Part shown: positions 767 through 24,679 of the stretch, in pieces
Position numbering within the stretch: the first letter of the stretch is position 1
Layout of the letters: every line of letters starts with the position of its first letter
Assembly: GCF_000002075.1 (NCBI RefSeq)
Contig: NW_004797283.1
Location: 2,448,170 to 2,512,169, forward strand
Reading direction: 5' to 3'
DNA from: Aplysia californica
Taxonomy: Eukaryota
DNA: 64,000 nucleotides
Made by a program: the position numbers and the translations under genes
Notes under the pieces: generated by a model
What the model was told of the DNA's origin: nothing
Seen by the model: only the letters and a program-made list of their open reading frames with translations
Database searches by the model: none

Positions 767-2910
767 GTTGTCAGCCTTCACTTTTTCAACAACGGGTTTT
801 CATCCCTAATGTCTATATGGCGTAGTGTTTGATTCAGAATTAAAAAACCAAATTTTCTTTAATAAAAGTTCCAATTCCTTAACAAGAATGCCTTTAACGA
901 TAATTAGTTTGTTCTCAATCATGCTGTCAGATTATACTCCTGATACTGACGGTGACAGAATGTCCAGTGGGTCTGTGTTTTCTCAACTCTATACAGATGT
1001 AACCAGTATAGAATGTTCTATAAGCAGCTGACCTAAAGCATTTCGAACCAACATAGGCAAATCAGAACCACGAATTTGCATTTTCCATAGCGTACATGTT
1101 GCTGTCAGTTTTTTTAAAGTTTTTGATAAAGGAAACACATTGATTGATATACATATTAATTTAATACATGAATAGCCAAGTTATGATTCTTTTTTAAGAT
1201 GCCCCCAAAAACAACATATCTTCAAGTGTTTTCAAAATGTTCACCTTCTTGTCTAGAATGTGGATGGGCTGTTGAGAAACATTGCATATGACTTAGAGGC
1301 AACCAGAAGTTGCAGTTCATGGTTTTAGTTTTCTTGAATATTTTCCCACCTTGTTCAGTGTCTTGACGACATACCAAGAGCTCTGCCGTCTAATTGACCT
1401 ATACTGAGTCCTAGTTCAGTAGAACAGTAAAAAAAAAAAAGCAAAATAAAAACAAACAAACAAACAAACAAACAAGCAAACAAACACGCAAACAAACAAA
1501 CAACAACATGTGGAACTGCATCTTGAAGACGTAACGGCACACGCATACAAATTCAAGACACAAAAACAGATTATATGATTTTAATTTTTAAAAACATTTT
1601 ATTNNNNNNNNNNNNNNNNNNNNNNNNNNNNNNNNNNNNNNNNNNNNNNNNNNNNNNNNNNNNNNNNNNNNNNNNNNNNNNNNNNNNNNNNNNNNNNNNN
1701 NNNNNNNNNNNNNNNNNNNNNNNNNNNNNNNNNNNNNNNNNNNNNNNNNNNNNNNNNNNNNNNNNNNNNNNNNNNNNNNNNNNNNNNNNNNNNNNNNNNN
1801 NNNNNNNNNNNNNNNNNNNNNNNNNNNNNNNNNNNNNNNNNNNNNNNNNNNNNTAATTCCNNNNNNNNNNNNNNNNNNNNNNNNNNNNNNNNNNNNNNNN
1901 NNNNNNNNNNNNNNNNNNNNNNNNNNNNNNNNNNNNNNNNNNNNNNNNNNNNNNNNNNNNNNNNNNNNNNNNNNNNNNNNNNNNNNNNNNNNNNNNNNNN
2001 NNNNNNNNNNNNNNNNNNNNNNNNNNNNNNNNNNNNNTTGTATACTTGTAGCTGTCCTGCTTAATTCTTAGTCATCNNNNNNNNNNNNNNNNNNNNNNNN
2101 NNNNNNNNNNNNNNNNNNNNNNNNNNNNNNNNNNNNNNNNNNNNNNNNNNNNNNNNNNNNNNNNNNNNNNNNNNNNNNNNNNNNNNNNNNNNNNNNNNNN
2201 NNNNNNNNNNNNNNTTTTAAAGTAGAAAACAACCACTAAACAATTAACTACTAGACCTAAGTTTAAGCACCCATGCCATGTTCTAATCCATAAAATAGCC
2301 GTGGGCAAAACGTGTGTCCAGACAGAACACCTTAATTTACTTTGAATCCCTTTCTTTCTTGTTCATCACTGTGAGGATTCCTCTCAGAACAACACTACAT
2401 GTATTTCTCTATTTATACAAAGACACTTAAAGATCAAAATACATTTTATGAAACTTGTGGCCAATACTATTCAGTGACACGTGGTTGTAACTGAAAAAAA
2501 CCCCACGTAAATGAAAGCTAAAGACAAACTACAATTTAAAATTTCATTTAAAAAAAGATTTTAAAATGGCTAAGCTACATGAGTGCATACGTGTATTAAG
2601 AATGGAAATTCTCAATTAGCTCAAAATTGTCGATACGTTTATTAACATCTATTTATAACAAAAATTATTATCTAAAATTTTGGAATACATTCAAAATGTT
2701 TATTGTGTTTGATACTCTTCCGTAGAATGCCCCTTTAAACATACAAATGAACTATCTGCAACCATGGGACCCCACCCCCCTTCCTATTTGTACGCCACTT
2801 TGTCCTATGTTTCTTCTTCTTTGCTCATCAACTCGGATGCTGCCCCCTCCACTCCCCCGTGTCCCTCTGTGTCGACGAACTTGGCTTTCGTACAGGGCTG
2901 GCTCAACAGC

Positions 2911-4052
2911 TTATTCTGCATCTTCCCAGTCTGAAAATTCCCAATCCGAGCAGTCAAAGTCCATGTACTCAAAGTCAGAGTCAGATTCTTCAACAAAACG
3001 AGCACTCTCCTCACGAGCTCGGTTCAGTTCCTCTCTCAGCAGCACAACACCGTCATTGTAGGCAGTATACCGCTCTTGTAGATCTGAAAGTTCCTCCGTA
3101 AGTAGACCCCTCTCCTCGTCAATAACCAACACTTTGTCTTCTGCAAATAACTCCTCCTCTTGAACTTTGGGTTGTTCTTCCTTACATTTGCGCCGATAAG
3201 CTCTTGTCTCCTGTTATTGAAAGAAGCAGTTTTCTTGGGTTAGATACATTCAACAAAAAATATTTTAATGGTTATTTATTGGAATCCAAAACAGCACCCA
3301 ATAGATGAATCATACTTTATTGATCCTCAAGGGGAAGCAATATTCAAAATACAGTGTATACAAGTACATACGTATAGCACCATACAGTGCTGGCCAGAAG
3401 TCGCAATACCATTTGAAACATCGGCTTATTTTTTCATAAAAATTATTTATGTTTTTTACCTCCAGATATTAACAGTTCACATGGTTTCAGTGCATCAGAT
3501 TTCTCTTCCAACAACAACATACTTCGAGACTTTCAGGTATCCCTCTCAGCCTGGGTGGCAGGCAGATTTAAAGTCCACCTCCTAAATGATCTTGTCTCCA
3601 ACATCTACACTTTAAAAGAAAATCTACCTTTCCCTAATCCACCCACTTCTCACAGACTCCGTAATGCTGTTTAGAAATGTATTTCTTTTTTTTTTTTTTA
3701 AGCCATAACAACTCAATTATACACGGATTACCAGATTTCTATACTTTGGGAAATGGATTTGTCCGAAAAGGTGCGTGTAGAGATTGTCAGTATCTTTCGT
3801 TTTCTTTAATAAATGTCTTTATTTGATCTGCAGTTTCCAGCCCTGGTTTTTATGCAATATGCAAGGACTATCTATTGCGAAGAGAAATTGAACTAGGCCT
3901 ACCTCTATAAGTCGCTTCAGTTCCCCTTCCAGCTTCACCATCTCTGCAAGGCTAGCTCTATAACGCTCCTCGAGTTCAGTCAATCTCCTGAGAACTTGCA
4001 TCTTTTCTTCAGTGCGCATTTCCTTCTCTTGAGTGTGACGAGACCGTGAGTC
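2911..4052 (-). CDS. Orphan coiled-coil protein, left copy (exons 4052-3903 and 3210-2911; 5' exon uncertain)
   Basis: Canonical polypyrimidine-CAG acceptors and GAG|GTAGGC donor; phase-0 exons of 150 and 300 nt in frame: DSRSRHTQEKEMRTEEKMQVLRRLTELEERYRASLAEMVKLEGELKRLIE + ETRAYRRKCKEEQPK...SDFEYMDFDCSDWEFSDWEDAE*. Confidence 0.7.
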
Positions 4053-4221
4053 CTGTTAAAGAAAGGAAAGTCAAAGCTTTCAGTTTACTTTAGAAATCTT
4101 TTTGCTCAAATAAGAAGGCTACGGTCAGTGTTGGAAATCCCTTCTGCTGTAAATAGAAATAAGTACAGTCGACGGGTAAACCAATAGCTTATGAAACCCC
4201 CCCCCTCCCCCCACCCACCCA

Positions 4222-4276
<55 letters not shown>

Positions 4277-4412
4277 ACGTGCTGTAACAACAACTGTTAA
4301 TGAACAAGCCGTTACTGCTCTATTATAGTTAACCTTCAAGAGGTGACCGCCTTTATCACGCGACAACAATCGCTTTCGGTCAACACTACACAATGGTGAC
4401 ATCATTTAAATT

Positions 4413-22304: not shown

Positions 22305-22348
<44 letters not shown>

Positions 22349-23227
22349 TTGCGAACATCACTGTGCCTTTTCGTTTCTCTTTCCAAGGAAATGGAGGTCA
22401 CAGTGTCAATTCCCGTAGACAAAACACCAATAAAATGTTTTTAAAAAGTAAAATCATATAATCTGTTTTTGTGTCTTGAATTTGAATACGTGTGTTGTTC
22501 CGTCTTCTAGTTGAAGTTCCATGTGTTTTTGTTTGTTTGTTTGTTTGTTTGTTTGTTTGTCTGTTTGTTTGTTTTTAGTTTCCTTTTTTTACTGTTCTAC
22601 TGAACTAGGACTCAGTGTAGGTCAATTAGACGGCAGAGCTCTTGGTATGTCGTCAAGACACTGAACAAGGTGGGAAAGTATTCAAGAAAACTGAAACCAT
22701 GAACTGCAACTTCTAGTTGCTTCTAAGTTATATGCAATGCTTCTCAACAGCCCATCCACATTCTAGACAAGAAGGTGAACATTTCGAAAACGCTCGAAGA
22801 TACGTTATTTTGGGGCATCTTAAAAAAGAAGCATTTGGCTATTTATGTGCTAAATCAATATGTATATCAATCAATTTGTTTTCTTTATCAAAAACTTTTT
22901 AAAAACTAACAACAACATGCACGCAATAGAAAATGCAAATTCGTGGTTCTGATTTACCTATGTTGGTTCGGAATTGCGACAACATTGCCTTCGGTTTGCT
23001 GCTTATCGAACATTCTATATCGGTTACATCTGTAAAGAGTTGAGAAAACACAGACCCACTGACATTCTGTCACTGTCGGTATCAGGAGTATAGTCTGACA
23101 GCATGATTGAGAACAAAGTAATTATCGTTTCCGGCATTCTTGTCAAGGAATCGGGACCTGCTTTTATTATTAGAGGAAACGTCATGTTTTTTGTGGCTTT
23201 TGTTGTTGTTGTTGTTGTTGTTGTTAA

Positions 23228-23274
<47 letters not shown>

Positions 23275-24679
23275 TCATACCGAATCAAGCACTGCGCCAT
23301 ATAGCCTAGACATTGGGGACGAAAACCTGTGGTGTTGAAAGAGTGAGAGCTGACAACATGATAAAAGGTGTTCAGGTTGTTACTTGACTGCTCAAAAGTA
23401 TTATGATGACGTGTGTGTTGAATTGGAAACGTATCTTTGGGCGCCATCTCGTGCACTGTCTAAATTATTATGTTTTACATAAAGGCTCTTTTGAAAAAAA
23501 CCCTGACAACTTCAGAACTATTGCAAATAGAGGAGACTACGAAAAGGAAATACAAACAATTTTAAGGCTTTGTCTTGTGAAGTGTTCCTCATTATCATCA
23601 TTACAGAGTAAAGTGCCCTTGTGCAACCACTTGTTGATGTGGTTGCTCATAAACCTCTCAGAGTTGCCAAAGGGAAATTTCTTTAGCAGCAGTCGATTGA
23701 TTTATTATTACATTGTTCACACTTGACCTGGCAGTGCCTGTATCAAAACAGGCAAACAAATAAAGATTTCAGAGGGAAAATACTCTTTGCCCTTTTTCAC
23801 CTTGTGTGCAACCACACGCCCTCGATGCAACCCGTTGTTTGCCCTTGATGCAGCCAATCTTTCTGCATGCAACTTAAATGTGACTTAAATGCAACCAGTT
23901 GCTCAAAGATACAGAAAATATGGATATAAGAAAGAAAAGATAGATCTATACATGTATTTTGCTTTTTAATGAACTATAAAACAGCGGGTGGCTTATCAGT
24001 CTGAAAAAAAATCAAACTAAAATTTGGGCGGAAAACTGAAATAGTTGTCGTCATTTTGCGTGTGGAGAGTCTGCGGTCACATTAAGGCACGCGTGTCCGT
24101 GCGCTTCCTCTTCAACAGAGATGACACACTATGCTACAGTGTTCTGCAAAGTTTGGTCTTGGTGAAGTTGTAAAGGAGAGCAATTTAATTATATTATCTT
24201 CCCTCGCTGGTGCTATTTTTGTTTTCGCTATGAGTGAATTCTTTACTATATATGTGAACACTAAATGTGTGTTTTTGATACCAAAAAAATGTAATATTAG
24301 AATTAGAAAAGTAATTGGGATCTGTATCTCTCTAGTATGTGTGGGTTTTTTCTGCTTTGGGCATGCTAGACTGACCTATGGGTTTATCTAAACTACGTTT
24401 ACTGGCAGTAATAGATGGTTATGGTATTGCTTTTCAAAATTAACAATGGCATTGATCTATACATATATGTATATAATGTATACATAATTTTTATTCATAT
24501 TTTGTTTCTATATTTTTTTAGTTAGTTTTTTTTTTGGGGGGGGCGGTTGTTTTGTTTTTGTTGTTGTTGTTGTTTTTTAGGGAGGGAGGCTGTTTTCCTT
24601 TTATACGAAACTGCACGCTAGAAATATAAGGTATACAACAAAGAGTGGCTATCCACTTTAGTTCACGCAGATTCAAATC

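What the first reader, a model, noticed from the sequence alone, without database searches (positions are those of the whole stretch)
768..23358. ~22.6-kb mosaic palindrome with divergently oriented gene copies
Seen: the outer arms are highly similar, while the innermost arms (10.9-11.4 vs 12.0-12.5 kb) are visibly more diverged. Segments are also shuffled or tandemly re-duplicated (12445-12890 = 14490-14930; 15010-15950 = 16190-17120; 5420-8210 has no positional mirror). Established: large palindromes are maintained by arm-to-arm gene conversion (e.g. sex-chromosome ampliconic genes). Inference: a real, evolving amplicon. The uneven divergence argues against a simple fold-back of two haplotypes, but gaps at the centre and at mirrored positions keep misassembly possible.
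Basis: partly seen in the sequence, partly recalled or inferred. Interest (0 to 1): 0.7.

Follow-up and report, generated by a model that had tools for sequence, protein, structure and literature searches.

The report
Inverted gene pair with promoter array
In the sea hare Aplysia, two back-to-back copies of a small coiled-coil gene sit either side of about thirteen reshuffled copies of what looks like the gene's own promoter: an older local duplication, not a near-perfect sex-chromosome-type palindrome.

Summary
The inverted repeat is real but loose: about 62% of called bases have a mirror, at 90-94% identity without gaps. The window is Aplysia californica. Each arm carries two coding exons of a small coiled-coil gene, transcribed outward. 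Four cores are followed by the gene's first coding exon. The two on the right-hand strand are intact, and one has the window's only strict TATA+initiator pair outside a microsatellite. The two left-hand ones are broken. The core is therefore most likely a proximal promoter amplified in tandem. The 76% inner arms are older paralogous modules, not a mirror pair. Modules are mosaic, and arm differences are patchy, so some gene conversion is likely, but far too little for the 99% identity of mammalian ampliconic palindromes. A structured-RNA reading of the core stays open (consensus fold z about -3 to -4 on both strands, covariation not significant). No reads or expression data could be checked.

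The parts
768..1603 (.). outer left arm tip, downstream of the left gene
   Evidence: 89.8% to 23358-22429
2215..5429 (.). left gene-bearing arm
   Evidence: 94.1% to 21678-18539
2911..3210 (-). left gene, last coding exon (99 codons + stop); poly(A) hexamers at 2704 and 2643
   Evidence: 84% to A. californica P0001 residues 64-163; AG acceptor, phase 0
3903..4052 (-). left gene, middle coding exon (50 codons); ATG at codons 12 and 18 where the right copy has Ile and Leu
5430..8212 (.). left-only segment holding modules u1, u2 and half of u3; best read as deleted from the right arm, whose junction cuts through the u3 counterpart
5711..5752 (-). first-exon copy behind u1: frame open, splice donor lost
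5917..6089 (-). core u1 (strand given in gene sense)
   Evidence: nhmmer E 1e-47
6404..6446 (-). first-exon copy behind u2: one extra base, in-frame stop just before a retained GT donor
6661..6834 (-). core u2; X-type upstream flank, exon-bearing downstream flank
8115..8265 (-). core u3, leader truncated after about 65 bases
8213..10590 (.). left array arm (half of u3, u4, u5)
   Evidence: 91.7% to 18537-16184
8943..9112 (-). core u4, mirror of u12; CRE-type palindrome at 9166
10138..10298 (-). core u5, mirror of u11/u10
10744..10919 (-). core u6, a chimera: u8-like up to about 10813, u7-like after about 10830
11419..11953 (.). central N gap (535); homologous sequence runs up to it on both sides and enters a GA-rich stretch on the left
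12452..12623 (+). core u7; CCAAT at 12613, degenerate TATA at 12677, initiator-like site at 12707
12830..12871 (+). intact first coding exon (14 codons, GTGAGT donor, phase 0)
13449..13621 (+). core u8; CRE-type palindrome at 13373
14497..14669 (+). core u9; CCAAT at 14658, TATA at 14722, initiator A at 14752
14875..14916 (+). second intact first coding exon (14 codons, GTGAGT donor, phase 0)
15306..15461 (+). core u10, tandem partner of u11
16479..16640 (+). core u11; its module is a mosaic of left-arm-like and u10-like tracts
17623..17796 (+). core u12; CRE-type palindrome at 17562
18485..18539 (+). partial core u13, cut by the deletion junction
18539..21678 (.). right gene-bearing arm
19834..19983 (+). 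right gene, middle coding exon (50 codons)
   Evidence: 81% to P0001 residues 15-62
20690..20989 (+). right gene, last coding exon (99 codons + stop); poly(A) hexamers at 21196 and 21261
22429..23358 (.). outer right arm tip

Best explanation
This is a real head-to-head inverted duplication of a small three-coding-exon coiled-coil gene (163 aa if spliced as in its RefSeq paralog) in Aplysia californica. The DNA between the two copies is an array of the gene's proximal promoter core, amplified by local tandem duplication and then reshuffled by recombination at or beside the shared core, by deletions, and by occasional gene conversion. Shown from sequence: arm map, exons, 13 cores, flank types, chimeric modules, broken and intact first exons. 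Inferred: the core is a promoter; the right gene has two alternative first exons; the seven cores with the exon-less B flank (u4-u6, u8, u10-u12) act as upstream enhancers or are decaying; the left gene has lost a working first coding exon and is either decaying or uses an ATG gained in its middle exon (138 aa).
For: Species: a neighbouring exon is 100% identical to A. californica rolling stone. P0001 lies on a different contig (1.56 Mb vs 3.07 Mb), so it is a third paralog. Its first 14 residues match exons 165-215 bases behind 4 of 12 full cores. A strict TATA+initiator scan of both strands of 64 kb gave 2 hits: one in an (AT)n microsatellite, and one at 14722, 30 bases before the initiator and between core u9 and the ATG. 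All four combinations of two upstream and two downstream flank types occur. Breakpoints map inside core u6 and at the edge of core u2 (max-chi p 0.0005). The core is better conserved than the downstream flank in 11 of 13 older pairs with clearly homologous flanks (five recent pairs left out; pairs not independent). 12 of the window's 15 CACGTG sites and 3 of 3 TGACGTCA sites lie in the 12-kb array. Non-coding arm differences are clustered (Sawyer-type p 0.0002).
Against: There is no transcript, chromatin or read evidence. No window-encoded protein came back from two protein searches with the last exon, so neither copy may be annotated. The CCAAT boxes, GC box and second E-box are not better conserved than the average core column, and the motif counts are copies of one ancestral unit, not independent events. 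The core folds into a consistent hairpin. Patchy identity can also come from purifying selection, and no outgroup DNA was available. The longest identical direct-repeat tract (193 bp) abuts a gap, and a 37-bp contig-end duplication elsewhere suggests the assembly can make such errors.
Confidence: 0.68

Rival explanations
1. The duplication is real, but the 170-bp core is a small structured non-coding RNA gene family transcribed toward the centre: a long hairpin, a short 3' hairpin and a U-run.
For: RNAalifold finds this fold unaided; 93% of cells pair; consensus energy z = -3.1 (8 copies) and -3.8 (6 copies) against column shuffles, while control flanks give -1.2 and -0.4. The best-conserved 13 bases end in a T-run.
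Against: Covariation is not significant (31-34 of 500 shuffles reach it for four measures, 188 for the fifth; similar), and both double changes are in one copy. The opposite strand scores as well (z -3.0, -4.1), the structure conservation index is only about 0.7, and the region was chosen after inspection. The loop is better conserved than the stems, unlike microRNA paralogs (expectation recalled). 7 of 12 copies have an internal T4 that should stop RNA polymerase III (rule recalled). Rfam has no match.
Confidence: 0.12
2. The arms are two divergent haplotypes of one locus, joined as a false fold-back by a short-read assembly.
For: Gaps lie at the centre and at mirrored positions. A local contig-end duplication exists in this window. 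I found no figure for A. californica heterozygosity.
Against: Sequence beyond the two arm ends is unrelated, and both ends lie inside gap-free sequence. The arms differ by 6-10% substitutions and by kilobase module content. The centre joins two modules only 72-76% alike. Several gaps adjoin simple repeats, which would break any assembly.
Confidence: 0.1
3. The core is a transposon or satellite remnant that merely served as the homology for local rearrangements; its place before the first exon is incidental and the array has no regulatory function.
For: The core sits between unrelated flank types, and most recognisable motifs are not specially conserved. Genome-wide copy number could not be tested.
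Against: No copy lies in the other ~49 kb (one E = 0.77 fragment dropped out on iteration). I saw no terminal inverted repeats by eye in the alignment. All 13 copies point the same way as the gene of their arm. The spacing from CCAAT to TATA to initiator is canonical behind u9.
Confidence: 0.07
4. This is a palindrome actively held near identity by arm-to-arm conversion, like mammalian sex-chromosome amplicons.
For: Identical runs of 230, 138 and 112 bp between arms. Only 1-2 synonymous differences in about 93 sites against 6.2 expected (P 0.015-0.055).
Against: Overall identity is 90-94% with many indels. The left copy carries derived amino-acid changes at 3 of 3 polarisable sites and broken first exons that conversion has not repaired.
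Confidence: 0.03

Closest known systems
Divergent inverted gene pairs in Caenorhabditis, e.g. F44E5.4/F44E5.5 and the hsp-16 locus (PMC1803023; part 1 of 4 read)
   Same: Paralogs head to head, with the intergenic DNA itself forming an inverted repeat; gene conversion proposed.
   Different: There the arms are 95-100% alike within C. elegans and the intergenic region is under 1 kb; here 90-94% and a 13-kb array of repeated promoter-like modules. Cross-species conservation is untested here.
Mammalian X/Y ampliconic palindromes (PMC3723533, PMC8981503; abstract openings in the search listing)
   Same: Large inverted repeat with mirrored gene copies.
   Different: Arm identity above 99% there; sex-linked, testis-biased genes. 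Here a hermaphrodite (recalled), 62% mirrored, 90-94% identity.
Variable first-exon arrays such as clustered protocadherins and UGT1A (recalled; no call)
   Same: Tandem promoter-plus-first-exon units that could each splice to shared downstream exons.
   Different: Only two intact first exons, of 14 codons differing at two residues; most modules have no exon; splicing not shown.
CLOCK:BMAL1 E1-E2 tandem E-box element (PMC3043000 and PMC2242825; passages read)
   Same: A canonical E-box followed after 6 bases by an E-box-like hexamer, near a GC box; the papers give 6-7 bases as the preferred spacer.
   Different: The strict pattern is in 5 of 13 copies, and the second site is not specially conserved. 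No binding or rhythm data.
A. californica 'coiled-coil domain-containing protein 136-like' (P0001)
   Same: 75-84% identical over the two large exons; same first exon.
   Different: Different contig; reads on 14 residues past the stop of the window copies. The name is an automatic label: no Pfam family reaches its cut-off and no fold match reaches E 0.001.

Membership tests
Ampliconic (sex-chromosome-type) palindrome | arm-to-arm identity above 99% | tested here: not met
   89.8, 94.1 and 91.7% without gaps
Ampliconic (sex-chromosome-type) palindrome | continuous mirror symmetry about a spacer | tested here: not met
   62% of called bases mirrored; 2.8 kb left-only
Ampliconic (sex-chromosome-type) palindrome | arm-to-arm gene conversion | tested here: inconclusive
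   clustered differences p 0.0002 and a weak synonymous deficit; selection not excluded; no outgroup DNA
Ampliconic (sex-chromosome-type) palindrome | sex linkage and germline-biased expression | not testable with these tools
   no expression data; species hermaphroditic (recalled)
Head-to-head inverted gene duplication | two paralogs on opposite strands, transcribed outward, intergenic DNA partly inverted | tested here: met
Head-to-head inverted gene duplication | both copies present on one chromosome molecule | not testable with these tools
   no reads; indirect support from unrelated sequence beyond the arm ends
RNA polymerase II proximal promoter | position just 5' of a first exon | tested here: met
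   4 of 12 full cores lie 165-215 bases before the first-exon ATG
RNA polymerase II proximal promoter | core elements at canonical spacing (consensus motifs recalled) | tested here: met
   u9: CCAAT -94, TATA -30, initiator +1; u7 the same with a degenerate TATA; not seen behind the other 11 cores
RNA polymerase II proximal promoter | capped transcripts start there | not testable with these tools
   no RNA data; name searches in 12 supplementary files of two RNA-seq papers gave 0 hits
CLOCK:BMAL1 E1-E2 element | canonical E-box plus second E-box-like site at 6-7 bases | tested here: met
   strict in 5 of 13 copies, loose in 11 of 13, spacer 8 in the other 2; chance about 0.012 for one ancestral site, noticed after the fact
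CLOCK:BMAL1 E1-E2 element | selective conservation of both sites | tested here: inconclusive
   E1 0.33 and E2 0.83 changes per column against a mean of 1.09; 12% and 35% of windows are as conserved
CLOCK:BMAL1 E1-E2 element | binding and rhythmic activation | not testable with these tools
   needs experiment
Structured small non-coding RNA | match to a known family | tested here: not met
   Rfam: none over the cores by E-value in 1-26000, 0 at gathering scores in the window
Structured small non-coding RNA | significant covariation | tested here: not met
Structured small non-coding RNA | conserved fold more stable than shuffles | tested here: inconclusive
   z -3 to -4 on both strands, index about 0.7
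Variable first-exon array | several first exons each spliced to common exons | tested here: inconclusive
   two intact phase-0 exons with strong donors and a phase-0 acceptor at 19834; splicing unseen

The most novel reading that the evidence does not exclude
The array is a self-amplified clock- and cAMP-responsive super-promoter: up to 11 tandem E-box pairs at CLOCK:BMAL1-type spacing plus three CRE sites, shared by two divergent copies of a narrowly distributed coiled-coil gene, with recombination at the core swapping first exons on and off. Alternatively, the core is an undescribed two-hairpin small RNA family. Either would give Aplysia, a model for both circadian and CREB-dependent biology (recalled), a directly testable regulatory element.
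Probability: 0.2. Interest if true: 0.62.

Novelty: new variant of a known kind. Interest (0 to 1): 0.34.

Why it matters
Inverted gene pairs are common, so the palindrome as such is ordinary. What is unusual is that the promoter-like core, not the coding sequence, has been copied 13 times, and that the copies record recombination that attaches or removes a first exon. If confirmed, it is a compact case of birth and death of cis-regulatory modules, including one gene copy that lost its start exon and gained internal ATGs. It also warns that diverged 'inner arms' of a palindrome can simply be older paralogs.

Tried and rejected
Rfam: only low-complexity matches on GT repeats and weak scattered ones, none over the cores; no tRNA genes. 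Coding role for the core: rejected, since copies differ by frame-shifting indels. Hammerhead, Y RNA, vault RNA, H/ACA and microRNA resemblances were considered from memory and rejected: motifs are not kept across copies and Rfam is negative. ChoRE (5-base spacer, recalled): 0 matches. Homology between the two downstream flank types, suggested by a forced alignment, was rejected by profile scores within the shuffle range for 9 of 9 targets. Protein function: Pfam nothing above cut-off; Atlas best score 0.89, a lead only; AlphaFold gives two helices, 15-76 and 84-142, mean pLDDT 75; Foldseek 0 matches at E 0.001. The HMMER search of 1.84 billion representatives gave 3 hits: P0001 itself, an unnamed 162-aa protein about 50% identical, and a weak long coiled-coil hit not followed. 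Literature: nothing on this locus in the searches run (listings only) or in supplements of PMC8195618 and PMC12937505; bioRxiv supplements could not be seen and might hold expression data. Accession numbers and isoforms of P0001's cluster also stay unchecked.
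Full report
Observation. A self-comparison of the window confirms three mirrored blocks: 768-1603 with 23358-22429, 2215-5429 with 21678-18539, and 8213-10590 with 18537-16184. Global alignments give 89.8%, 94.1% and 91.7% identity with gaps excluded, with 10, 17 and 16 indels; the innermost pair gives 76.1%. The two direct pairs written as '=' are 93.8% and 92.0%. Only 62% of the called bases in 768-23358 have a positional mirror.

Organism and gene. A neighbouring exon at 34854-35234 is 100% identical to A. 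californica rolling stone. The largest exon in the arms finds one named relative, A. californica P0001, 177 aa, on another contig. P0001 maps to three exon types: a 14-codon first exon, a 50-codon middle exon (4052-3903 minus; 19834-19983 plus) and a 99-codon last exon (3210-2911 minus; 20690-20989 plus). All junctions are phase 0 with AG and GT ends. The two copies are transcribed outward. The fold model of P0001 is two long helices with a low-confidence acidic tail. No Pfam family reaches its cut-off, and no solved structure matches at E 0.001. One unnamed relative, about 50% identical, was found among 1.84 billion representatives, so the family is narrow but not confined to one record. Its function is unknown; a coiled-coil adaptor role is a guess from shape.

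The array. An iterated profile search finds 12 full copies and 1 partial copy of a ~170-bp core between 5917 and 18539, and none elsewhere in the window. All point the same way as the gene of their arm. Behind five cores lies one flank type (A). In four of these it leads to the first exon: intact at 12830 and 14875, donor lost at 5752, frameshifted at 6446; the fifth is truncated. Seven cores have an unrelated flank (B) with no exon. Upstream there are two main types: X, which in three modules carries a CRE-type palindrome, and Y.

Why a promoter. The first-exon ATG lies 165-215 bases behind the core. A scan of both strands for a strict TATA box 28-33 bases before a strict initiator returned 2 sites in 64 kb: one inside an (AT)n run, and one at 14722, between core u9 and its ATG, with CCAAT 94 bases upstream of the initiator (consensus motifs recalled). 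Module u7 has the same layout with a degenerate TATA. The core holds an E-box in 11 of 13 copies. It is better conserved than its downstream flank in 11 of 13 older pairs with homologous flanks. Against this, the CCAAT boxes, GC box and second E-box are not better conserved than the average core column; only a 13-base stretch at the core's 5' end stands out. No transcript data could be examined.

How it evolved. In the tree of cores, u4 pairs with u12, u5 with u10 and u11, and u7 with u9; u6 and u7, which face each other across the centre, are not sisters. Their flanks are 72% alike, while u7 and u9 on the same arm are 77% alike. The diverged inner arms are thus older paralogs that happen to face each other. 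All four flank combinations occur. Core u6 switches from u8-like to u7-like between 10813 and 10830, and module u2 switches at the core's edge. The u11 module alternates between left-arm-like and u10-like tracts, and remains mosaic after dropping the 210 bases next to the gap (p 0.0015). The right arm lacks 5430-8212, with the junction inside a core. I infer tandem amplification of the module first, then an inverted duplication that gave the 90-94% arms, then deletions and exchanges.

Conversion between arms. Non-coding differences (176 in 2662 sites) are clustered (p 0.0002), and synonymous differences are 1-2 in about 93 sites against 6.2 expected (P 0.015-0.055). This fits occasional conversion but also selection, and no outgroup DNA was available. 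In the outer tip the clustering is not significant (p 0.07). Conversion has not restored the left copy's first exons. That copy has derived residues at 3 of 3 polarisable sites and two ATGs in its middle exon that the other copies lack, so it is either decaying or starts internally.

Rivals. The core folds into a long hairpin plus a short 3' hairpin before a T-run, with z of -3 to -4, but equally on both strands and without significant covariation; Rfam has no match. A haplotype fold-back is unlikely because the sequence beyond the two arm ends is unrelated and the arms differ in module content. It is not excluded: I found no heterozygosity figure, and the assembly shows a 37-bp contig-end duplication at 30006/30140. 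A transposon origin of the core could not be tested genome-wide.

Comparison with known systems. The structure works like the divergent inverted gene pairs of Caenorhabditis (PMC1803023, part 1 of 4 read). It fails the identity test for mammalian ampliconic palindromes (abstract openings). It resembles variable first-exon arrays (recalled) only on a very small scale. The E-box pair with a 6-base spacer matches the CLOCK:BMAL1 E1-E2 geometry (passages of PMC3043000 and PMC2242825). It is strict in 5 of 13 copies, descends from one ancestral site and was noticed after the fact, so it is a lead only. Passages of PMC9334734 show only that the RefSeq assembly for this species is AplCal3.0; that the window comes from it is my inference.

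Verdict. The feature is real with probability about 0.9, and ordinary as a palindrome. The amplified, recombining promoter-like array is an unusual variant worth a modest follow-up. Interest 0.34; most novel reading probability 0.2, interest 0.62 if true.

Noticed in passing
window 5224-5385 (+) and 18744-18583 (-): A 54-codon antisense ORF in intron 1 of both copies, two residues different, inside the best-conserved non-coding block (138-bp identical run), with a TATA-like hexamer 30 bases before a loose initiator.
   Followed up: partly
window 25158-25659: Imperfect 500-bp palindrome (69%), MITE-like; related fragments lie in intron 1 of both arms.
   Followed up: no
window 30006-30042 and 30140-30176: A 37-bp stretch repeated exactly on both sides of an (AT)n run next to a gap; probably a contig-end artefact.
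   Followed up: partly
window 49650-52400: 333-bp tandem repeat in three copies (95%) and a 36-bp satellite, with inverted pieces around the gap at 51458.
   Followed up: no
window 27800-35240 (+), 39100-48300 (-), 56100-60610 (+): Neighbouring genes: rolling stone; a minus-strand gene I recall as NR2C2AP-like (no Pfam hit for two exons); and a DUF167/UPF0235 gene, apparently head to head with it.
   Followed up: partly
window 639-768, 7678-7789, 7857-7984: A GT-linked repeat element marks the left end of the palindrome and occurs twice more behind module u3.
   Followed up: partly
window 14232-14422: A ~190-bp dispersed repeat (also at 31598-31795) inserted in the upstream flank of module u9 only.
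   Followed up: partly
window 32780-32850: Looks by eye like a tRNA-derived SINE head; ARAGORN and Rfam are negative.
   Followed up: partly
P0001 residues 21-69 and 81-131: The protein has an internal two-fold repeat, about 35% identical, matching its two helices.
   Followed up: partly
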